From Escherichia phage SECphi18: a stretch of DNA of 44,798 nt. Each line of letters opens with the position of its first letter. Positions within the stretch are counted from its first letter, which is position 1. The translations under genes were made by a program, and so were the position numbers. Below, one piece after another: positions 24,446 through 35,510 of this stretch. The stretch is taken from sequence record LT960609. One strand, written 5' to 3'. The notes beneath the pieces are model-generated. The model saw only the letters and a program-made list of their open reading frames with translations. It ran no database searches and had not been told where the DNA came from.

Positions 24446-25053
24446 CCACATTTAAATTATACGGCGTTTTAGGACGTCGATTCGGTAAAGTGCATAAGCT
24501 GGACTGCTTCACTCCGGGCGAGGGTATCACCGGCCTGTGCGTGAAGTTACCCGGCTTACAGGACTTTCTAATGTCGGCCCACCTGGACAATATGATGTTC
24601 AAGGTGCGCAAAGGCGACCACACGATGACCGGCTATGATGAGCTGGGCGAGTTCCACGGCAACCGCGTCGTCACCATCGCGCCGGTTATGACTGGCGCAA
24701 AAAGAGGGTTGGGACAATTGCTGGCGGGTGTCGCGATCGTAGTGGCGTCGTTCTATACGGGCGGACTTGCTACTGCCGCTTTCGGGGCTTCGGCTGCAAC
24801 CGCTGCCGCTATCGGGACGGCAACGTTTTCGTTCGGCATGTCGATGGCGCTGGGTGGAGTTATGCAATTGCTGTCGCCTCAACCGAAAGGATTGCAAACA
24901 CGGCAGGACGTGGATAACAAGGCTTCGTATGCGTTCGGGGGGCCGGTGAACACGACCGCGCAAGGCACGGCACTTGGTGTATTATGGGGCGAGCGTGAGA
25001 TCGGCGGCGCTATTATTTCAGCCGGAATCGTAACCGAGGATTTGAACGAATGA
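24436..25053 (+). CDS. Tail assembly protein I-like
   Basis: 205 aa; overlaps K and J genes; Gly/Ala-rich hydrophobic C-terminus. Confidence 0.6.
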   Translation: MAMTTFKLYGVLGRRFGKVHKLDCFTPGEGITGLCVKLPGLQDFLMSAHLDNMMFKVRKGDHTMTGYDELGEFHGNRVVTIAPVMTGAKRGLGQLLAGVAIVVASFYTGGLATAAFGASAATAAAIGTATFSFGMSMALGGVMQLLSPQPKGLQTRQDVDNKASYAFGGPVNTTAQGTALGVLWGEREIGGAIISAGIVTEDLNE

Positions 25054-28000
25054 CGATTATCTACGACGTCACGGGCCATAAAGGCGGCGGCGGAAAACAG
25101 CACACCCCACAGGAGACGCCCGATAGCCTGCATTCGCTGGCTAAAATCCGCATCTTGCTCGCGTTGGGTGAAGGGGAATTCGAAGGCATTACGAGCGCCA
25201 GCGAATTGCGGCAGCGTGTATACCTGGACGGAACACCGATCCAGAACGCAGACCTGTCAGAAAACTTCCCTGGAGCGCGTGTGGAGTTCCGCCCCGGAAC
25301 ACAACACCAGGATGTGATCCACGGATTTTCAGCGGTGGAAAGTGAGCAATCCGTTGGGGTAAAACTGGAGAACGGCACGCCGTGGGTGCGCCAGATTAAC
25401 GACACCAGTTTGGACGCCGTGCGCATTCGCATCGGCATTCCGGCCTTGTACACAAACGAAGATAATGGCGACCTGGTGGGTGGGCGCATCGACTATAAGA
25501 TCGTTGTGTATACGGATAACGCCGACCCGCGTGAGTTTACCTTCGCCGCCGTTGGTAAAACAATGTCGCTATACGAGCGCGATCACCGCATCGAGCTACC
25601 GCCGAACGTTAACACCGGCTGGCGCGTGGAGGTGCACCGCATAACGGCAGACTCCACATCGGCGAAAGTGGTTAATGATATCCGGGTGCAGTCCATCACT
25701 GAGATTATCGACGCCCGCCTGCGTTACCCGCTAACCGCGCTGTTGTTTGTGGAGTTCGACGCCAAAGCGTTCCAGAACATCCCGCGCGTGTCCATCAAGT
25801 GCAAAGGCCGCAAAGTTCTAATACCGAACAACTACGACCCGATTAATCATACTTATTCGGGGGACTGGGACGGCACGTTCAAACGCGCATGGACGGATAA
25901 CCCTGCGTGGCACTGGTACGATATTTGTATTACTGAGCGCTTCGGCCTCGGTCGCCGGATCAAACCGCAAATGCTGAACCGGTACGCGCTCTACCAGATC
26001 GCGCAGCGCTGCGATCAGTTGGTAAGTGACGGCAACGGCGGACGGGAAATCAGATTTAAGAATGATATGTACATCCAGTCGCAGACAGACGCCTGGACCG
26101 TGCTTAAGGATTTAGCTGCCATCTTCGCCGGGATGACCTGGTGGGGAAACCAAATGTTGAATATCGTCAGTGACCAACCGGTCGCAGCAGTGTCGCACAC
26201 TATCACCAACGCCTCGGTTATTGATGGTCGATTCGACTACGCATCTGGCAGCCAGAAAACGCGGTACTCCACTTTCGCGGTAGCATACGGCAACCCGAAA
26301 AACCACTATGATGACGCTATCGCAACGGGCCAGCGCGTCGAACTGGTGCGCCGCCATAAGATTAACCGTCTTGATATAACGGCGATCGGCTGTACGCGCG
26401 AATCTGAAGCGCAACGCCGCGGACACTGGGCGCTAATCTCCAACCAGTTGGACCAGCAGGTCAGCTTTAAGGTTGGCATGGAGGGGCTATTCTTTATTCC
26501 TGGTAGCGTAGTAGCGATCGCGGATACTAATATTTCTGGCGGATTTGAGACTCGCGGCGGTCGCCTGTTGTCAGACCCTGGCACGCGTACCGTGCTTAAC
26601 ACAGACAGCGAAATCACATTCCGCCCCGGCGATAAGTTCCTGGTGCGCACCGATAGCGGAAATGTGGAGACTCGCGAGATCGCCAGCGTCAACGGCAACA
26701 AGGTCACGCTAAAAACCGCACTGGATGCCGACCCGATTCCAGACCAACCGTTTTGCGTTGATGGCGATGATATCCAGTTGCAAAAATTCCGCATCACCGA
26801 TCTGGAGTATGACGACTCTACGAGCACTTTCTCGGTGCGCGGGATTGAATACAACGATAGCAAGTATGATGCCGTTGATAATGGCGCTCGCCTTGATCCT
26901 GGTATCTTCACGCAAGTGCCAGACGGTGTAATGAAGGGGCCGGAATCCGTTACCATCACCCCGTCGCAGATCTCATCGCAAGGCCAGCTAATCACCAACG
27001 TGGATATTGTTTTCCCGCCGGTGAAGGATGCCGTTGTGTATGAAATCCAGTGGCGACGTACCAGCTTGCAGAATATGGCGATCCAGTGGGGTAACGACTG
27101 GGTGAACATTCCCCGCACGGCATCGAACGGTGCGCACATCCCGAACGTGTTTTCCGGCAACTATCAGGCACGCGTCCGTGCGATCGGTATGGGCGAGATT
27201 TCATCCCCGTGGGTGTCGTCCGCCATCACGCCGGTGGAAGGTCGCCTCGGTGGGCTTAACGCACCAATCATCACCAACGCGATTTCGGGTCTGCATCAAA
27301 TTCTATGGAAGTGGAACCACAACAACGCCGCGACTGATATTTCGTACACCGAGCTTGAAGTGCGCAAGACTGGCGAAACGGAATGGAAGTTCCTAACCAA
27401 CGTCCCATATCCGGGGTCGGAGTATGCGCAAACGTCGCTGGAGTTCGGAATTTACCAGCAGTTGCGCGCCCGTGTAGCTGATAAAATCGGCAACCTGTCG
27501 GACTGGTCCGCCCCGTTTGAAGGCCAGGTGAGTGACAAAGTTGACGAGTACATGAAGGGGCTTGATGACGAGTTCTTGACTTCCGAGGATGGTAAACGCT
27601 TCCAGGAAGCAATCGACACAATCCCGCAGGGTATTTACGAGGCGATGCTCACCGACGCGCAGCAATTGTTCAACGCCCGCGCCGAGTACAAGGGTATTTA
27701 TGCGGAAATCTCGGTCGCGTATAACGTGGCGGCGGACGCCCACAAGGCGGTCGCTCAACTGGAGACGTTGATCGGCACGCGACTTGACGATGCTGAAGCG
27801 GCGATCCACACGTTGCAGACAGCGCAAAGCACGCACGAGCAAGCCTTCGCCCAGTACCAGCAAACTGTTGCCGCTAAGTTCGGGGACCAGGAAGCCGCCA
27901 TCCAGCAGGTACAAACGGCAACGAGCACCAATGCTCAGGCGCTGGCGGATTATAAAGTCCACGTAGCGGCGCAGTTTGACCAACAGTCCGCAGCTATCGA

Positions 28001-28469
28001 GCAGAAGATGACGTCCACGTTTAACCATGCTGGTGGCAACGCCACGTACAGCCTTAAGGCGGGCGTGACGTATAACGGGACTTACTATGATGCCGGTATG
28101 CAGCTTTCCGTCGTGGCGGAAGGCGGCGCGGTTAAATCCCGCATCGCATTCAAAGCGGACCAGTTCTACATCATGCACCCATCTAACGGGTCGCTTTCGT
28201 CCGCGTTTATCGTAGACGGCGGCGCGGTGTATATTGACACGGCACGCATCAAAGACGCGACTATCAACTTCGCGCAGATTACGGACACGTTGCAATCGAA
28301 TAACTATGACGGCTACTCGCGTGGTTGGCGCTTAGGGAAAGACGGAACGTTTATCAACCTGGGAACCGGTAACGGTGGCGGGATGAAACAGACAAACACG
28401 CAAATCAGCGTTAGGGACGGAAACGGCGTGCTCCGCGTGCAAATTGGTGAAATCACAGGTTATTGGTAA
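25050..28469 (+). CDS. Central tail fibre / host specificity protein J-like
   Basis: 1139 aa; ATG overlaps upstream stop; size and position after I. Confidence 0.8.
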   Translation: MTIIYDVTGHKGGGGKQHTPQETPDSLHSLAKIRILLALGEGEFEGITSASELRQRVYLDGTPIQNADLSENFPGARVEFRPGTQHQDVIHGFSAVESEQSVGVKLENGTPWVRQINDTSLDAVRIRIGIPALYTNEDNGDLVGGRIDYKIVVYTDNADPREFTFAAVGKTMSLYERDHRIELPPNVNTGWRVEVHRITADSTSAKVVNDIRVQSITEIIDARLRYPLTALLFVEFDAKAFQNIPRVSIKCKGRKVLIPNNYDPINHTYSGDWDGTFKRAWTDNPAWHWYDICITERFGLGRRIKPQMLNRYALYQIAQRCDQLVSDGNGGREIRFKNDMYIQSQTDAWTVLKDLAAIFAGMTWWGNQMLNIVSDQPVAAVSHTITNASVIDGRFDYASGSQKTRYSTFAVAYGNPKNHYDDAIATGQRVELVRRHKINRLDITAIGCTRESEAQRRGHWALISNQLDQQVSFKVGMEGLFFIPGSVVAIADTNISGGFETRGGRLLSDPGTRTVLNTDSEITFRPGDKFLVRTDSGNVETREIASVNGNKVTLKTALDADPIPDQPFCVDGDDIQLQKFRITDLEYDDSTSTFSVRGIEYNDSKYDAVDNGARLDPGIFTQVPDGVMKGPESVTITPSQISSQGQLITNVDIVFPPVKDAVVYEIQWRRTSLQNMAIQWGNDWVNIPRTASNGAHIPNVFSGNYQARVRAIGMGEISSPWVSSAITPVEGRLGGLNAPIITNAISGLHQILWKWNHNNAATDISYTELEVRKTGETEWKFLTNVPYPGSEYAQTSLEFGIYQQLRARVADKIGNLSDWSAPFEGQVSDKVDEYMKGLDDEFLTSEDGKRFQEAIDTIPQGIYEAMLTDAQQLFNARAEYKGIYAEISVAYNVAADAHKAVAQLETLIGTRLDDAEAAIHTLQTAQSTHEQAFAQYQQTVAAKFGDQEAAIQQVQTATSTNAQALADYKVHVAAQFDQQSAAIEQKMTSTFNHAGGNATYSLKAGVTYNGTYYDAGMQLSVVAEGGAVKSRIAFKADQFYIMHPSNGSLSSAFIVDGGAVYIDTARIKDATINFAQITDTLQSNNYDGYSRGWRLGKDGTFINLGTGNGGGMKQTNTQISVRDGNGVLRVQIGEITGYW

Positions 28470-28472
28470 CAC

Positions 28473-28493
28473 AGGGGCTTCGGCCCCTTTCTT
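28473..28493 (+). terminator. Intrinsic terminator after the J-like gene
   Basis: ggggc-ttcg-gcccc followed by tttctt. Confidence 0.45.
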
Positions 28494-28506
28494 AGGGAGG
28501 TATAGC

Positions 28507-28809
28507 ATGGCTTTCGGTGTCGCAACATGGGACGCGCAAGGGCGACCAAACAACTACGGGATAAAGCCCGTTTCGGTTGTCGGAATTATTAAACTGGCAC
28601 AAGGTCAAACATCGGGGGCGTGGTCGTTCGATATTCCGTCAGGTATGAAAGTAGGTTTTGCGGTTACGCTGGACGTAGGCGGCACTACGGTCGGTCGGGC
28701 GATCCGTGCCAGCGGGAACACGATAACAGTATCTGCCGCAAACAGCGTCGGCATTGGCAACTACCCAGCATCAGAATGTGAAGTAGTAGTTTTTGTGGAG
28801 AAAGCGTAA
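28507..28809 (+). CDS. Hypothetical tail-associated protein
   Basis: 100 aa from internal ATG with RBS agggagg; N-terminus MAFGVATWDAQG resembles the next gene (MANFGALIDNNNG). Confidence 0.45.
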   Translation: MAFGVATWDAQGRPNNYGIKPVSVVGIIKLAQGQTSGAWSFDIPSGMKVGFAVTLDVGGTTVGRAIRASGNTITVSAANSVGIGNYPASECEVVVFVEKA

Positions 28810-28811
28810 AA

Positions 28812-29483
28812 ATGGCAAACTTCGGAGCATTAATTGACAACAACAACGGCAACCCATTCGTCACGCCAAACTCAACGCCATTCGTCCTCTACGCTAAGGT
28901 GTCGGCAAATTCAGTGGACGCCGGTGCGGATTATAAAACAGCAAGCGGTGGAGTGGATATCCCCGCGAACTATCCGGCGATGGTGTTCATGCGGTCCAAT
29001 AACCGTTGCGTCCTGGCGGCGTCACGATCAGGTAACCGGATTATATTTAGCGGAAGCATTCAGGGCCAGAATAACCCACATTTTACCGTCACGGCGTACA
29101 TATTCGCGCGATTCCCGCAACCGCTGCCGAGATGGGGGTTTGCTATTTGGGACGCCAGTGGGACGTGCATACTAACCAACGAAAGCAAGGTGCTCACCGA
29201 TCTAGTCACTGTCGGCAGCTTCGGCAATAACGGCGGGATCAACATAGACCAGACGCTGCCGGGTAAGTACGCGGTATCACCTATGTTAATGGGCGCCACT
29301 CTGATCCAGATCTTTGTACAAGGGTCGCCGCTGATTATCCAGATCTCGGCGGGGGCAGGGGCTTACGACAACGGAAGCGGCACTCGTATTAACGCGGTCG
29401 CTACGCAGGCTGGGTCAGGGAGCATCGCAGGGTATCAAAACACCGGCGTTGCTCTGACCGCAATTAACGTGGATGGGATATGA
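28812..29483 (+). CDS. Hypothetical tail-associated protein
   Basis: 223 aa; starts 3 nt after the previous gene; Gly/Asn/Ser-rich. Confidence 0.45.
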   Translation: MANFGALIDNNNGNPFVTPNSTPFVLYAKVSANSVDAGADYKTASGGVDIPANYPAMVFMRSNNRCVLAASRSGNRIIFSGSIQGQNNPHFTVTAYIFARFPQPLPRWGFAIWDASGTCILTNESKVLTDLVTVGSFGNNGGINIDQTLPGKYAVSPMLMGATLIQIFVQGSPLIIQISAGAGAYDNGSGTRINAVATQAGSGSIAGYQNTGVALTAINVDGI

Positions 29484-29500
29484 AACGCCCCGAAAGGGGC

Positions 29501-29719
29501 TTATTCGCAGGTGGTGCTTTTGAAGTGGTCGACCGACACATACTGGAAGTTGAATGGGTATCCTGCCCGTAACATTTTATGTCCGCTAAAGTCGGCGACC
29601 CCAAACACCGGGACGGAATACTCCATACCACTATTCATGTATGTTGCGTCGCATATTTTAGACGGCATGTAGGCACAACCGGACAAAAGAACCGCACAAA
29701 TCATAATTAAAGTTTTCAT
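29501..29719 (-). CDS. Small secreted lipoprotein (superinfection-exclusion candidate)
   Basis: 72 aa from internal ATG with RBS aggaga; signal peptide MKTLIMICAVLLSGC with lipobox; three further Cys; opposite strand to the tail genes. Confidence 0.6.
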   Translation of the reverse strand: MKTLIMICAVLLSGCAYMPSKICDATYMNSGMEYSVPVFGVADFSGHKMLRAGYPFNFQYVSVDHFKSTTCE

Positions 29720-29773
29720 GGTATCATCTCCTATATTTGGTTTAGTTTTAGTATTGCACTGCTTAACCATTAA

Positions 29774-29783
29774 TGCAACCAAT
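29774..29783. promoter_or_regulatory. Operator-motif copy in the divergent region between lipoprotein and tail fibre genes
   Basis: TGCAACCAAT about 17 nt upstream of the tail fibre ATG. Confidence 0.4.
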
Positions 29784-29799
29784 TTATGAGGATTCAGCT

Positions 29800-31578
29800 A
29801 TGGCAGCGGGTACACTATCCGTAACGAATAACAGCAAGGCGGTTGTCGGGGTAGGCACGACGTTTACCGCGTTTAAAGCTGGCGACTTCTTAACGCTGGT
29901 GGTAGGGCAAGTCCCATACACCGTGGCAATCGCGTCCATTGAAAGCGCAACCGCGCTCACGCTGGTGTTACCGTTCGACGGCCCAACGGCAACCGGCCTT
30001 GCGTGGGATGGCGTTAAGCGCGATACCATGTCGCTGGCAACGATGGGCGTTACCGTACAGGCCCAAAAAGCATTGCGCTTGATGATTGCAGATGAAAACA
30101 ACTGGCGTGCAATCTTCGGCGATGCTGAAGAAATCACAGTCACGCTCCCGAACGGGCAAGTTATGCAGGGTATGTCGTGGGGCTACCTGTCGTCTTTGCT
30201 GAAGGAAGTAGACCCCGTTGAGATGCGCAACCTGCAACAACAAGCCGCCGCATCGGAAGCAGCCGCGCAAGGATTCCGTAACGAGGCGGAAGGCTTCAAG
30301 AACGACGCCAACACCATCAAGACGCAGACCAACCAGATTAAGGCGGATACGCAGGCGATCAAGGACCAAACGAATCAGATCAAGACTGACACTGGCGTTA
30401 TTCGTGATGAAGCCAATACTGCGAAGGAGGACGCGCAATCTGCCCGCACTGCCGCGCAAGGATTTCGCAATGAGGCTGAACAATTCGCTAATAGTGTTAA
30501 CCCGGAAAACCTACTTGCGAAGGCCAACAACTTAAGTGATGTTGCGGATGTGGCTGTGGCGCGCGAAAACATTGGTGTAGACCGCCTAACGCAAAACATA
30601 ACCAGCGGCGAAACACAAATCAGGACTGCGGCGAGTAATAAATGGATCTTCGTTAAGGAAAATGGCGACTGGGGCGGGTGGGATAATGCCAACAATAAAG
30701 CCATGCCGCTGCCGATTGCATTCGGTGGTACGGGGCGCGGCGATAACGTCGCCGCGTTCCGCCAGTTTAAGTCTAACGGCGAATCCCCGGACGGATTAAT
30801 CCTCAAGCAGGCTGGGGCCGGTTTCGGTGGCGCAGGCTGGGCCAATTCAGCGGATAAAGTACGCTGGCGTATGGGCATCGACGAAGCCTCTGGCCATTTT
30901 AAAATGTACTCATACGACGCAGCGGGAGCGTATCGAGACACCGTCCTCGAGATCACCGGAGCAGGACTCGGGGGCATGGTGTTGTCCCGTGATATGACCG
31001 TGCGCCCGACGACGGCAGTTCCCGCGCGATCGTTCGTTCTAAACAACGGAAAAGCTACCGTCCCGGCTGGTAACTTCCGCACGATGTGGGATACGGTTAA
31101 TATCAATAGTGACCAGATCTATAAATATTTTGAGAAGGGAGACGGCACTGGCTTTACAGTCAATTGGCCCTCATCCGGTGGTGTTATTGCCCTCCAGGGT
31201 ACATCAGGAAGGGACTTTAAGAAAGATATTACCGACGCGGATGTTACAGAAGCGGTTGCACGCATTGAACAAATGCGCATGGTGCGCTACGTGTATAAGG
31301 ACGATGTGCAGGAGCGCGTCCGCTTCGGCATCATTGCCGAGGAAGCAGAAGAGATTGCGCCTCAATACATCAAACACCGTGAGGAGACGTACGATGTGGA
31401 GGTGGACCCCGAGACTAACGCCATCGTCGGGGGTAAGACGCGCGACCGTCCGTCGGTAGACGTTAACCCTATCGTGATGGACTTGATGGGGTGCGCACAA
31501 TATGCGATCGCTGAGTGTAAACGCCTGGCGGCGGAAGTGGAGGATTTGAAAGCCGAGATCGCGGCGTTGAAGAAATAA
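29800..31578 (+). CDS. Tail fibre with C-terminal intramolecular chaperone domain
   Basis: 592 aa from ATG with RBS gagga; central repeats (QTNQIKADTQAIKDQTNQIKTDTG); C-terminus resembles autoproteolytic S74-type chaperone domains. Confidence 0.65.
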   Translation: MAAGTLSVTNNSKAVVGVGTTFTAFKAGDFLTLVVGQVPYTVAIASIESATALTLVLPFDGPTATGLAWDGVKRDTMSLATMGVTVQAQKALRLMIADENNWRAIFGDAEEITVTLPNGQVMQGMSWGYLSSLLKEVDPVEMRNLQQQAAASEAAAQGFRNEAEGFKNDANTIKTQTNQIKADTQAIKDQTNQIKTDTGVIRDEANTAKEDAQSARTAAQGFRNEAEQFANSVNPENLLAKANNLSDVADVAVARENIGVDRLTQNITSGETQIRTAASNKWIFVKENGDWGGWDNANNKAMPLPIAFGGTGRGDNVAAFRQFKSNGESPDGLILKQAGAGFGGAGWANSADKVRWRMGIDEASGHFKMYSYDAAGAYRDTVLEITGAGLGGMVLSRDMTVRPTTAVPARSFVLNNGKATVPAGNFRTMWDTVNINSDQIYKYFEKGDGTGFTVNWPSSGGVIALQGTSGRDFKKDITDADVTEAVARIEQMRMVRYVYKDDVQERVRFGIIAEEAEEIAPQYIKHREETYDVEVDPETNAIVGGKTRDRPSVDVNPIVMDLMGCAQYAIAECKRLAAEVEDLKAEIAALKK

Positions 31579-33281: not shown

Positions 33282-33502
33282 TTTAAGCTCTCAATAAGGG
33301 TGTGTCGGGCGCTGCGCGCGGTGAAGGAGTTACACACGAAATGGCAACGCTTGGTTATGACAAGCCAGCCGGTAAGATCCAGGCCCAGGATATATTCAGG
33401 CCGTGACACGCGCTTCACGTGATCGCGGCGTGGGTCGATGTTATAGTCTCTTTGCATTTGGTATACTACCGCGGGGTCGCGGTCAACGATTAAGATATTC
33501 AT
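33278..33502 (-). CDS. Hypothetical protein
   Basis: 74 aa from internal ATG with RBS gagag; overlaps neighbours by 4 nt. Confidence 0.4.
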   Translation of the reverse strand: MNILIVDRDPAVVYQMQRDYNIDPRRDHVKRVSRPEYILGLDLTGWLVITKRCHFVCNSFTARSARHTLIESLK

Positions 33503-33968
33503 GTAACTCACTCTCGCTCATTATTTCAATTTGTGCGCTGCCGATGGGCGGCGCTTCGTCAAAGATTATCAATTGCTGGCACTTGTTATTGCTAGGCCCG
33601 ACTTCGCCGGTGACGGCGTGTATAAATCTAATCCGCCAGTCCAGAAGAATTATCAGGTTTGCAGTCTTCCTGGCCAGCTTCGCCCCCTTCGTCGACGTGT
33701 CCTGATTCAGTAGCATGACCGTCCGGCGTCCGTGCGCTGCGCACTCTACCCACGGCAGCGGATCGGAATACGGCGGATTGCACCACTTCCACCCTTTCAA
33801 CTCGGACCAGTCCACATCAAGCGCGCTGTGTTCCGCCGTGAAGTAACGCGGTAGCAGATGATTGGCGTCGCTTGCCGCCATATCGTAACGGAATCGGTAT
33901 TTCCGACGAAGCGGTTTAAATAAAGCTGGCGGCGTGCGCCAGCTATCTTTTTGCTCATTCTCCGTCAT
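33483..33968 (-). CDS. DNA N6-adenine methyltransferase (phage Dam-like)
   Basis: 161 aa; catalytic NPPY motif (WCNPPYSD). Confidence 0.6.
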   Translation of the reverse strand: MTENEQKDSWRTPPALFKPLRRKYRFRYDMAASDANHLLPRYFTAEHSALDVDWSELKGWKWCNPPYSDPLPWVECAAHGRRTVMLLNQDTSTKGAKLARKTANLIILLDWRIRFIHAVTGEVGPSNNKCQQLIIFDEAPPIGSAQIEIMSESELHEYLNR

Positions 33969-34494: not shown

Positions 34495-34818
34495 TTACGA
34501 ATAAAAATTTGGGTCGCGCGCTACGTCTACCAGATACAGATTGCTGATTCGGTTGCCGTAGTGGCCTGGTGTGCGCTTGCGGCACACAACGGCGTAGCCT
34601 GGAGGAATTGTATTGCCAGTCTCAATAATCCACGCCACGCGCGCGCCAGATAGCGTCTTGCCGTTGCACTCGATGCGCGTGCCACCATCGGCAGTGTTAA
34701 GGTTGCCGATCTTGCAGCCTGTGGACTTCAGGCGAATGACGCCGGTCTTGCTGTCGTAGGAAAAAAGCTGATTGGTCATTGCCACTGAAAAGTCGATGGC
34801 TTCGAATGTAGTATTCAT
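34495..34818 (-). CDS. Hypothetical protein, HNH-like
   Basis: 107 aa; weak resemblance to homing-endonuclease DNA-binding modules. Confidence 0.3.
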   Translation of the reverse strand: MNTTFEAIDFSVAMTNQLFSYDSKTGVIRLKSTGCKIGNLNTADGGTRIECNGKTLSGARVAWIIETGNTIPPGYAVVCRKRTPGHYGNRISNLYLVDVARDPNFYS

Positions 34819-35510
34819 TTTAAATTTTCCTCATTGACCGCTATCGCGAAGCCGCGCGGGGTGAGCGACCTGATTAATTTGGTGCGGGCAGATTTGCCTC
34901 CGAGGCGACTATACTGCTTCGAGTACCCTTTTTCAACGAAAACAGGTTTCTTCTCTGGCATACGGAAGCCGTTGCCGGTCCATAAGCAGGTCAGCTTCGG
35001 ATATGAATCGCGGGCGTTGATGTACTCTGGGAAGAGCGGGTGTACGTCATCCACCGGTAGATAGCCGCCATACTCCCACGGGTCGAACGAGTGGTCCGGC
35101 TTGCGCCATTGGGTCGATAGCACGCTGCGCGGATTCTCAATCATATATGGCACTTCGAAGAAGTCCCCCAGGTAAGCGGCGATCTTCGCGGTGCGCACCG
35201 CCTTAAGCTGGAAGGCAGGGTCGCGGGCGCGTTTGCGCGGGAAAGCTGGCGCACCGCTAACCGCCAGATCCGTACACGGCGGGAATGCGTAAATGATATC
35301 CGGCGTGCCGAAATCACCATTCATCGCGCGGTCCACGAAGTCCAGATCGATAAACTCATTACGATATCGGATACCGCGCCCATAGATCCGGTAATCAAGG
35401 TAAGACCCGTGATCGGCTTCGGAGTAGTTGAAGCAATAACACTTATGCCCCATCTCGGCAGCACGCTCAATCATCAAGCCGCTGCCGTCAAACAATGACC
35501 AGATTATCAT
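34815..35510 (-). CDS. DNA C5-cytosine methyltransferase-like protein
   Basis: 231 aa; motif I-like LFDGSG, motif IV-like FPPC, motif VI-like ENP; short for a full methyltransferase. Confidence 0.45.
   Translation of the reverse strand: MIIWSLFDGSGLMIERAAEMGHKCYCFNYSEADHGSYLDYRIYGRGIRYRNEFIDLDFVDRAMNGDFGTPDIIYAFPPCTDLAVSGAPAFPRKRARDPAFQLKAVRTAKIAAYLGDFFEVPYMIENPRSVLSTQWRKPDHSFDPWEYGGYLPVDDVHPLFPEYINARDSYPKLTCLWTGNGFRMPEKKPVFVEKGYSKQYSRLGGKSARTKLIRSLTPRGFAIAVNEENLK

What the first reader, a model, noticed from the sequence alone, without database searches (positions are those of the whole stretch)
29501..29719. Reverse-strand lipoprotein next to the tail fibre gene
A 72-aa protein with a lipoprotein signal peptide (LLSGC lipobox) and three further cysteines is encoded antisense between the J-like and tail fibre genes. 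Small lipoproteins placed beside receptor-binding genes in T5-like and lambdoid phages (Llp, Cor) block the phage's own receptor.
Basis: partly seen in the sequence, partly recalled or inferred. Interest (0 to 1): 0.65.

Follow-up and report, generated by a model that had tools for sequence, protein, structure and literature searches.

The report
Cor receptor-blocking lipoprotein of a Dhillonvirus
The small reverse-strand gene is real, but it is an ordinary, already annotated member of the Cor family: a phage lipoprotein that switches off the FhuA outer-membrane receptor so that an infected cell stops adsorbing more phage.

Summary
The ORF at 29501-29719 (minus strand) exists as described. It encodes 72 aa with the lipobox L-S-G-C15 and further Cys at 8, 23 and 71. 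It is a real gene: dN/dS is 0.06-0.17 against five orthologues, and it has its own RBS and a hairpin terminator.

It is a clear Cor superinfection-exclusion lipoprotein. It scores 59.4 bits on the NCBIfam equivalog NF047972 (cutoff 31) and E=9e-28 on PHROG 1119. It is 49% identical to T1 Cor and 38-40% to phi80 Cor.

The window is a Dhillonvirus (SO-1/HK578-like) genome. Relatives with 83-99% identical copies already annotate the gene as "super-infection exclusion protein".

The gene closes the conserved FhuA cassette, J – 100-aa protein – 223-aa putative receptor-binding protein – cor, also found in T1 and phi80. The cassette allele is 92-95% identical to that of phage PaulFeyerabend (Bas15), which is experimentally FhuA-dependent.

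An AlphaFold2 model (pLDDT 85) has T5 Llp in its FhuA complex (8A60_B) as its top PDB match. [quoted passage not shown]

One side observation may be new. Dhillonviruses that use different receptors share an identical signal peptide and promoter on unrelated exclusion lipoproteins, so the cassette-swap junction lies at the lipobox.

The parts
29501..29719 (-). cor: a 72-aa prolipoprotein. The signal peptide is residues 1-14, the lipobox is LSGC15, and the mature protein is 58 aa with conserved C23, R51-A-G-Y-P-F56 and C71.
   Evidence: sequence; NF047972, 59.4 bits against cutoff 31; PHROG 1119, E=9e-28; conserved columns; dN/dS 0.06-0.17.
29675..29719 (-). The part of cor that encodes the signal peptide and lipobox (MKTLIMICAVLLSGC). 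It is identical in Dhillonviruses that carry unrelated exclusion lipoproteins. Homology to the LptD-type phage Oekolampad resumes at 29672.
29728..29732 (-). Shine-Dalgarno sequence AGGAG of cor.
   Evidence: read directly from the sequence.
29750..29778 (-). Putative cor promoter: TTGCAT, a 17-nt spacer, then TGcAATACT (extended -10-like). This is inferred by eye; it did not pass the scan tool's threshold.
   Evidence: coordinates; conserved in five Dhillonviruses, including a non-Cor one; no site called here.
29487..29500 (.). GC-rich hairpin GCCCCGAAAGGGGC between the convergent stops of the 223-aa gene and cor. It is a likely bidirectional terminator.
   Evidence: terminator-like site on the minus strand; -12 kcal/mol, z = -2.3; conserved in JLBYU60, KarlBarth and bob; analogous hairpin in T1.
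28812..29483 (+). A 223-aa protein (PHROG 425), the putative FhuA receptor-binding protein of the cassette. It is convergent with cor.
   Evidence: 94% identical to PaulFeyerabend/Bas15, 97% to bob, 52% to JLBYU60 and KarlBarth, 49% to phi80 gp23, 46% to T1. The literature names this locus as the RBP locus (PMC8594841; bioRxiv 10.64898/2026.04.02.716166).
28507..28809 (+). A 100-aa cassette protein (PHROG 557), an accessory protein of the FhuA cassette.
   Evidence: 95% identical to Bas15, 76% to phi80 gp22, 48% to T1.
25050..28469 (+). J-like central tail-tip protein. Its last ~55 codons (from about 28306) belong to the receptor-specific swapped module.
   Evidence: FNIII-A_GpJ, Phage-tail_3, Phage_Tail_Tip; homology to Oekolampad ends at 28305; C-terminal sequences.
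29800..31578 (+). Lateral tail fibre gene with a C-terminal Peptidase_S74 chaperone domain. It is divergent from cor across an 80-bp spacer.
   Evidence: (start position by comparison with JLBYU60).

Best explanation
The gene is the cor gene of a Dhillonvirus, a member of the Cor family of phage exclusion lipoproteins.

The proposed mechanism has these steps:
1. The precursor is exported. It is lipidated on Cys15 and cleaved by signal peptidase II at LSG|C.
2. [quoted passage not shown]
3. The 58-aa all-beta mature domain is probably clamped by a C23-C71 disulphide.
4. It binds the periplasmic face of FhuA, the phage's own terminal receptor. As shown for T5 Llp, this binding remodels the plug and folds the extracellular loops inward.
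5. The receptor-binding protein of this phage and of other FhuA-dependent phages (T1, T5, phi80) can then no longer dock.

In a lytic phage this protects the infected cell from superinfection. It also keeps progeny from being wasted on FhuA in cell debris.

Shown here: gene reality, family membership, lipobox, conserved motifs, cassette synteny, an FhuA-type cassette allele, and an Llp-like predicted fold. Inferred: lipidation, outer-membrane sorting, the disulphide, FhuA binding and the allosteric mechanism.
For: Family membership: NF047972 'phage exclusion lipoprotein Cor' equivalog at 59.4 bits against a cutoff of 31, and PHROG 1119 at E=9e-28 over the full length.

Similarity to characterised Cor proteins: 49% identical to T1 Cor and 38-40% to phi80 Cor. 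The lipobox, C23, RAGYPF and C71 are invariant.

Synteny: the order J, 100 aa, ~224 aa, cor is the same in T1, phi80, JLBYU60, KarlBarth and bob.

Receptor: the cassette allele is 92-95% identical to Bas15. Bas15, Bas16 and Bas17 have FhuA as terminal receptor (PMC8594841, supplementary file 5). JLBYU37 and JLBYU60 are FhuA-dependent (PMC10373560). LptD-dependent Oekolampad has an unrelated RBP and exclusion-lipoprotein cassette at the same site.

Structure: the AF2 model has pLDDT 85, and above 95 for residues 21-70. The top Foldseek hit among 350,542 PDB chains is 8A60_B, Llp bound to FhuA, with TM 0.50/0.57, rmsd 2.8 A over 51 columns and 25% identity. BFVD hits are Llp-like lipoproteins of T5-like phages.

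[quoted passage not shown] Cor and Llp are placed in one structural family (bioRxiv 10.64898/2026.03.26.714494). The cor cassette is found in all FhuA-using BASEL Drexlerviridae and Dhillonvirus phages, and an AF3 model puts Cor on the periplasmic face of FhuA with ipTM 0.84 (PMC13164509).
Against: No experiment was done on this protein or on any Dhillonvirus Cor that I could find. The molecular mechanism of Cor itself is stated to be unresolved.

Sequence similarity to Llp is marginal and leans on the signal peptide: phmmer E=0.19 and profile E=0.015.

The Foldseek E-value for 8A60_B is only 0.064, and Tudor-like small beta domains score nearly as well.

Pfam has no model that matches. The cor promoter is read by eye only.
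Confidence: 0.9

Rival explanations
1. It is a Cor-family lipoprotein that excludes FhuA-dependent phages, but not by an Llp-like one-to-one periplasmic clamp on FhuA. Instead it acts through, or needs, other outer-membrane proteins such as OmpA or the porins, or it disturbs TonB-FhuA coupling.
For: The title of Arguijo-Hernandez et al. [quoted passage not shown] The paper itself was not read. A 2026 preprint states that the Cor mechanism 'has not yet been elucidated'. T1 and phi80 need TonB while T5 does not (PMC10373560). Cor is only about 20-25% identical to Llp.
Against: The predicted fold is closest to FhuA-bound Llp. The two cysteines are conserved at positions equivalent to those of Llp. 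A published AF3 model places T1-like Cor on the periplasmic face of FhuA with ipTM 0.84.
Confidence: 0.07
2. It is a lipoprotein with a different role, such as an outer-membrane spanin (Rz1-like) lysis component, or an exclusion factor for another receptor (LptD or BtuB).
For: It is a small phage lipoprotein with a lipobox. Dhillonviruses put the identical signal peptide on LptD-type and BtuB-type lipoproteins.
Against: Beyond residue 16 the mature domain has no similarity to the Oekolampad/WFI (LptD) or PTXU06 (BtuB) lipoproteins. It passes the Cor equivalog model. It lies in the tail and receptor module, not next to lysis genes. The mature protein has only 3 Pro in 58 residues, unlike proline-rich o-spanins.
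Confidence: 0.02
3. It is a chance antisense ORF with no product.
For: It is short (72 aa), lies on the opposite strand to its neighbours, and has no Pfam hit.
Against: dN/dS is 0.06-0.17. Full-length homologues occur in 239 phage records across several families. It has its own RBS and terminator. The fold is predicted with confidence.
Confidence: 0.01

Closest known systems
Cor of phages T1, phi80, N15, HK022 and mEp167 (NCBIfam NF047972; PHROG 1119)
   Same: Size is similar (72 aa against 75-77 aa). It shares the lipoprotein signal peptide and lipobox, the two conserved Cys, the RAGYPF motif and the C-terminal F-x-S-T-T-C motif. It lies immediately after the J, ~100 aa, ~224 aa FhuA cassette. 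It is antisense to the tail genes, as in T1.
   Different: It is only 38-49% identical to the characterised Cor proteins. Its host genome is a virulent Dhillonvirus, not a lambdoid prophage or a Drexlerviridae phage. In phi80 cor is on the same strand as J. No experiments exist for the Dhillonvirus subgroup.
Orthologues in other Dhillonviruses (CEC_Kaz_2018, bob, welsh, mckay, UAE_MI-01, KarlBarth/Bas17, PaulFeyerabend/Bas15, JLBYU60)
   Same: They are 83-99% identical, have the same length and the same position, and many are already annotated as 'super-infection exclusion protein'. Bas15-17 and JLBYU37/60 are experimentally FhuA-dependent.
   Different: The best match differs by 1 aa (98.6%), and none is identical in the phage collection. 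The neighbouring 223-aa gene occurs as two alleles that are 52% identical; this window carries the bob/Bas15 allele.
Llp of phage T5 (PDB 8A60 chain B, complex with FhuA)
   Same: It is a small outer-membrane lipoprotein encoded next to the receptor-binding gene, and it targets FhuA. It is the best structural match to the model (TM 0.50/0.57, rmsd 2.8 A). The Cys pair sits at equivalent positions, and there is a shared C-[DE]-A-x-Y-M stretch after the lipobox.
   Different: Identity is about 25%, and sequence searches are only marginal (E 0.015-0.19). The RAGYPF motif is absent from Llp. T5 llp is transcribed divergently from the RBP gene oad, whereas here cor is convergent with the putative RBP gene and divergent from the lateral tail fibre gene.
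Rtp45 and bas18_0026, LptD-directed exclusion lipoproteins of Rtp and Oekolampad (PDB 9RPS)
   Same: The genomic slot and logic are the same: a small periplasmic lipoprotein blocks the cognate receptor. In Dhillonviruses the promoter and signal peptide are also identical.
   Different: The mature domain is unrelated, the receptor is different (LptDE), and the partner RBP gene is different (a 321-aa antisense gene).

Membership tests
Cor phage exclusion lipoprotein (NF047972 / PHROG 1119) | Scores above the curated cut-off of the family profile over its full length. | tested here: met
   NF047972 equivalog: 59.4 bits against cutoff 31, residues 2-72 on profile positions 2-77 of 78. PHROG 1119: E=9e-28, residues 1-72 on positions 1-75 of 78.
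Cor phage exclusion lipoprotein (NF047972 / PHROG 1119) | N-terminal lipoprotein signal peptide with a lipobox [LVI][ASTVI][GAS]C and a non-Asp +2 residue (outer-membrane sorting). | tested here: met
   The precursor starts M-K, has a hydrophobic core, then L12-S13-G14-C15 with A16 at +2. The lipobox G-C is invariant or nearly so across homologues. This is a pattern check only; no signal-peptide predictor was available.
Cor phage exclusion lipoprotein (NF047972 / PHROG 1119) | Conserved mature-domain residues: two Cys (one early, one near the C-terminus) and the [RK]-A-G-Y-P-F motif. | tested here: met
   C23, R51-A-G-Y-P-F56 and C71 are invariant against T1 and phi80 Cor. C23, A52, Y54, P55, F56 and C71 are at least 90% conserved, and G53 is invariant, across 20 sequences that include 13 distant representatives.
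Cor phage exclusion lipoprotein (NF047972 / PHROG 1119) | Located directly after the J, ~100 aa, ~224 aa cassette that is associated with FhuA use. | tested here: met
   The same order is seen in T1, phi80, JLBYU60, KarlBarth and bob. The cassette proteins are 46-97% identical. The association with FhuA comes from PMC13164509 and PMC8594841.
Cor phage exclusion lipoprotein (NF047972 / PHROG 1119) | Expression inactivates FhuA functions and excludes FhuA-dependent phages. | not testable with these tools
   This needs plating and adsorption assays plus ferrichrome, albomycin and colicin M assays.
Cor phage exclusion lipoprotein (NF047972 / PHROG 1119) | Lipid modification and outer-membrane localisation. 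| not testable with these tools
   This needs globomycin or palmitate labelling and membrane fractionation.
T5 Llp lytic conversion lipoprotein | Significant sequence similarity to Llp. | tested here: inconclusive
   phmmer against the PDB: 8a60_B is the best hit, but at E=0.19. The profile of 20 Cor sequences gives E=0.015 over residues 1-42, including the signal peptide. Pairwise blastp gives 37.5% identity over 40 aa.
T5 Llp lytic conversion lipoprotein | Same fold as the FhuA-bound Llp structure. | tested here: met
   8A60_B ranks first of 350,542 PDB chains, with prob 1.00, TM 0.50 (query, including the disordered signal peptide) and 0.57 (target), rmsd 2.8 A over 51 columns and 25% identity. 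The E-value is 0.064, and unrelated Tudor-like domains follow closely. The AF2 model has pLDDT 85.
T5 Llp lytic conversion lipoprotein | An intramolecular disulphide that ties the N- and C-termini of the mature protein (Cys11-Cys58 in Llp). | tested here: inconclusive
   The equivalent residues are mature Cys9 and Cys57 (precursor C23 and C71). C23 aligns with Llp C26. The C-terminal pairing is inferred from position only (PMC9586334). The bond itself cannot be tested here.
Rtp45-like LptD-directed exclusion lipoprotein | Mature-domain similarity to bas18_0026 or Rtp45. | tested here: not met
   The only blastp alignment to the Oekolampad protein is the 16-aa signal peptide, which is 100% identical. 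The mature regions do not align.

The most novel reading that the evidence does not exclude
The most novel reading concerns how the gene is built, not Cor itself. In Dhillonviruses the promoter, RBS and the 15-16 codons for the signal peptide and lipobox are part of the conserved genome backbone. They are shared, with an identical amino-acid sequence, by at least three unrelated receptor-specific exclusion lipoproteins (FhuA, LptD and BtuB types).

This short conserved segment, together with the conserved stretch ~55 codons before the end of J, may act as the homology arms for exchanging the whole receptor module (J tip, RBP, accessory protein, mature exclusion lipoprotein) as one unit. That would keep each RBP linked to the blocker of its own receptor. 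I did not find this junction described in the held literature.
Probability: 0.5. Interest if true: 0.35.

Novelty: already known. Interest (0 to 1): 0.1.

Why it matters
Practical value only. The gene, together with the two genes upstream of it, predicts from sequence alone that this phage uses FhuA as its terminal receptor. It also predicts that infected cells become refractory to T1-, T5- and phi80-type phages, which matters when designing phage cocktails. It adds one more sequence to a small family: only 13 representatives at 50% identity were found among 1.84 billion proteins. The molecular mechanism of that family, unlike that of Llp, has not been solved experimentally. The shared-signal-peptide junction is a modest clue to how receptor modules are swapped among small siphoviruses and could guide engineered receptor retargeting.

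Tried and rejected
- Pfam: no family matched the 72-aa protein or its two upstream neighbours.
- Word-based homologue search: it returned only six close Dhillonvirus relatives. The exhaustive representative search was needed to reach distant Cor proteins. It met a full queue at the first try and finished.
- Promoter scan: it called no sigma-70 site upstream of cor. The two sites it reported lie inside the gene and were ignored. The promoter given in the report is read by eye.
- Direct Llp homology by sequence: still marginal, even with a profile.
- Rtp45-type (LptD) membership: rejected, because only the signal peptide matches.
- Spanin and chance-ORF readings: rejected on context, composition and dN/dS.
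- Literature search for a prior description of the signal-peptide junction: nothing relevant in the held library. This does not prove that none exists.
- The primary experimental Cor papers (Uc-Mass 2004; Arguijo-Hernandez 2018) were not read. They are cited only through papers that cite them.

Full report
**Observation.** The minus-strand ORF at 29501-29719 is present exactly as reported. It encodes 72 aa: MKTLIMICAVLLSGCAYMPSKICDATYMNSGMEYSVPVFGVADFSGHKMLRAGYPFNFQYVSVDHFKSTTCE. The N-terminus is a typical lipoprotein signal peptide, with K2, a hydrophobic core and the lipobox L12-S13-G14-C15. Residue +2 is Ala, which under the established +2 rule directs Lol-dependent sorting to the outer membrane. 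Cysteines are at positions 8, 15, 23 and 71. C8 is inside the signal peptide, so the 58-aa mature protein (6.5 kDa) keeps the acylated Cys plus two others.

An AGGAG Shine-Dalgarno sequence lies 8 nt before the ATG (29732-29728). The stop codon is followed at once by the hairpin GCCCCTTTCGGGGC (29500-29487), with a fold energy of -12 kcal/mol and z = -2.3. The convergent upstream gene shares this hairpin, and it is conserved in relatives.

Two plus-strand genes, 28507-28809 and 28812-29483, lie between the J-like gene (25050-28469) and this ORF. The tail fibre gene most probably starts at 29800, by comparison with relatives.

**The gene is real.** Against five orthologues that differ at 10-39 of 219 nucleotides, dN/dS is 0.06-0.17. 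tblastn finds full-length matches in 239 phage records.

**What it is.**
- The protein passes the curated NCBIfam equivalog NF047972 'phage exclusion lipoprotein Cor' (59.4 bits, cutoff 31).
- It matches PHROG 1119 'Cor superinfection exclusion protein' over its whole length (E=9e-28).
- Pfam has no matching model.
- It is 49% identical to T1 Cor and 38-40% to phi80 Cor.
- The lipobox, C23, R51-A-G-Y-P-F56 and C71 are invariant in that comparison and almost invariant across 20 sequences that include 13 distant representatives.
- The family is small: an exhaustive HMMER scan of 1.84 billion representatives found only 13 at E<=1e-3.

**Genome context.** The window is an essentially complete Dhillonvirus (SO-1/HK578-like) genome, about 92% identical in nucleotides to many records. 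No record in the phage collection has an identical Cor. About 74 records have copies at 83-99% identity, for example CEC_Kaz_2018 at 98.6%, bob at 97%, and KarlBarth and PaulFeyerabend at 92%. Many of these are already annotated as 'super-infection exclusion protein'.

The gene order is J-like tip protein, a 100-aa protein (PHROG 557), a ~224-aa protein (PHROG 425), then cor. T1 has the same order with cor also antisense. phi80 has it with cor on the same strand.

**Literature on this cassette.**
- It is treated as the receptor-specificity locus of small siphoviruses, made of RBP genes plus a cognate exclusion protein (PMC8594841; bioRxiv 10.64898/2026.04.02.716166).
- The three-gene cor cassette is reported in all FhuA-using Drexlerviridae and Dhillonvirus phages of the BASEL collection (PMC13164509).

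**Which receptor.** The window's cassette allele matches phage PaulFeyerabend (Bas15): 95% for the 100-aa protein, 94% for the 223-aa protein and 92% for Cor. The BASEL supplementary table lists FhuA as the terminal receptor of Bas15, Bas16 and Bas17, and LptD for Bas14 and Bas18. Dhillonviruses JLBYU37 and JLBYU60 are also experimentally FhuA-dependent (PMC10373560), and JLBYU60 Cor is 87.5% identical.

The LptD-dependent Oekolampad (Bas18) carries a different module at the same site: an antisense 321-aa RBP plus a 73-aa lipoprotein. The prediction that this phage uses FhuA, and that its Cor is directed at FhuA, is therefore well supported. It is still an inference.

**Mechanism.** AlphaFold2 with the 20-sequence alignment gives a confident all-beta mature domain. 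Mean pLDDT is 85, and 95-97 for residues 21-70. The signal peptide is disordered.

Foldseek against 350,542 PDB chains ranks 8A60 chain B first. This is T5 Llp in complex with FhuA. The scores are prob 1.00, TM 0.50/0.57, rmsd 2.8 A over 51 columns and 25% identity. The E-value is only 0.064, and Tudor-like small beta barrels follow closely, so rank matters more here than significance. In BFVD the next hits after the CEC_Kaz_2018 orthologue are small lipoproteins of T5-like phages.

Sequence-only comparison with Llp is marginal: E=0.19 for the single sequence and E=0.015 for the profile. It does align C23 with the first disulphide Cys of Llp and shows a shared C-[DE]-A-x-Y-M stretch.

Published work supports the same picture:
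- Llp binds the periplasmic face of FhuA, displaces part of the plug and causes loops EL7 and EL8 to fold inward, which abolishes RBP binding. Those authors expect Cor, which shares the disulphide, to act likewise (PMC9586334).
- A 2026 preprint groups Cor and Llp into one structural family, but notes that the Cor mechanism has not been elucidated.
- An AF3 model of a T1-like Cor docks on the periplasmic face of FhuA with ipTM 0.84 (PMC13164509).

I therefore commit to an Llp-like allosteric block of FhuA by an outer-membrane, inner-leaflet lipoprotein. Confidence is about 0.9 for 'a Cor protein that inactivates FhuA'. It is somewhat lower for the detailed allosteric step. The main rival is that Cor needs other outer-membrane proteins. 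Here that rests only on the title of Arguijo-Hernandez 2018, as cited.

**Expression.** cor is a self-contained antisense unit. It is divergent from the lateral tail fibre gene across an 80-bp spacer and convergent with the putative RBP gene. The scan tool called no promoter upstream. By eye there is TTGCAT (29778-29773), a 17-nt spacer, then TGcAATACT (29758-29750), conserved in five relatives. This is inference only.

**Comparison and novelty.** This is a member of a named, curated family in a phage genus where the gene is already annotated and where the cassette's link to FhuA has been published.

**Side observation 1: the cassette-swap junction.** Nucleotide homology between the window and LptD-type Oekolampad runs to 28305, about 55 codons before the end of J. 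It resumes at 29672, which is codon 16 of cor, just after the lipobox Cys.

The exclusion lipoproteins of Oekolampad and WFI (LptD type) and of PTXU06 (reported as BtuB-dependent in PMC10373560) start with the identical MKTLIMICAVLLSGC and are then unrelated. The 159-nt promoter and signal-peptide segment occurs in 133 phage records, against about 74 records with this Cor type.

So the signal peptide and promoter belong to the backbone, and the swapped module ends exactly at the signal-peptide cleavage site. I did not find this described in the held literature.

**Side observation 2: two alleles of the putative RBP.** Among FhuA-dependent Dhillonviruses the 223/224-aa protein occurs as two alleles that are only 52% identical, while Cor stays 88-92% identical. 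This is expected if Cor contacts the conserved periplasmic side of FhuA and the RBP contacts the variable outside.

Noticed in passing
window 28306-29671, with junctions at 28305 and 29672; L007 (Oekolampad), L008 (PTXU06), L011 (WFI): The receptor-module swap junction lies inside cor, at the lipobox. The promoter, RBS and signal peptide MKTLIMICAVLLSGC are identical in Dhillonviruses whose mature exclusion lipoproteins are unrelated (FhuA/Cor, LptD and BtuB types). The other junction lies ~55 codons before the end of J. The 159-nt segment 29672-29830 is found in 133 phage records, against about 74 records with this Cor type.
   Followed up: partly
window 28812-29483, compared with L006 8809-9483, L001 6239-6913 and L010 2848-3522: The putative FhuA receptor-binding protein (223/224 aa) exists as two alleles that are only 52% identical among experimentally FhuA-dependent Dhillonviruses: the Bas15/bob/window type and the Bas16/Bas17/JLBYU60 type. 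The adjacent Cor stays 88-92% identical. The 100-aa protein in this window is closer to phi80 gp22 (76%) than to JLBYU60 (73%).
   Followed up: partly
window 28444-28809 and 29773-31578: The mechanical ORF list over-extends two genes. The 100-aa gene most likely starts at ATG 28507, not TTG 28444. The lateral tail fibre gene most likely starts at ATG 29800 (RBS GAGGA at 29788-29792), not 29773. Both calls rest on comparison with annotated relatives.
   Followed up: yes
hits H21 (MG065687.1) and H41 (MG065648.1) in the phage collection: Records named 'Campylobacter phage A136' and 'A144' are a T1-like phage and a Dhillonvirus-like phage. A144 is 92% identical to this window over 24.8 kb, and both carry cor. 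The stated host looks doubtful and may reflect contamination or mislabelling.
   Followed up: no
window 33483-33968 (-), 34495-34818 (-), 34815-35510 (-): By position relative to annotated relatives (KarlBarth, bob, JLBYU60), these minus-strand ORFs correspond to a Dam-like N6-adenine methyltransferase, an HNH/homing endonuclease and a Dcm-like C5-cytosine methyltransferase. They were not analysed here.
   Followed up: no
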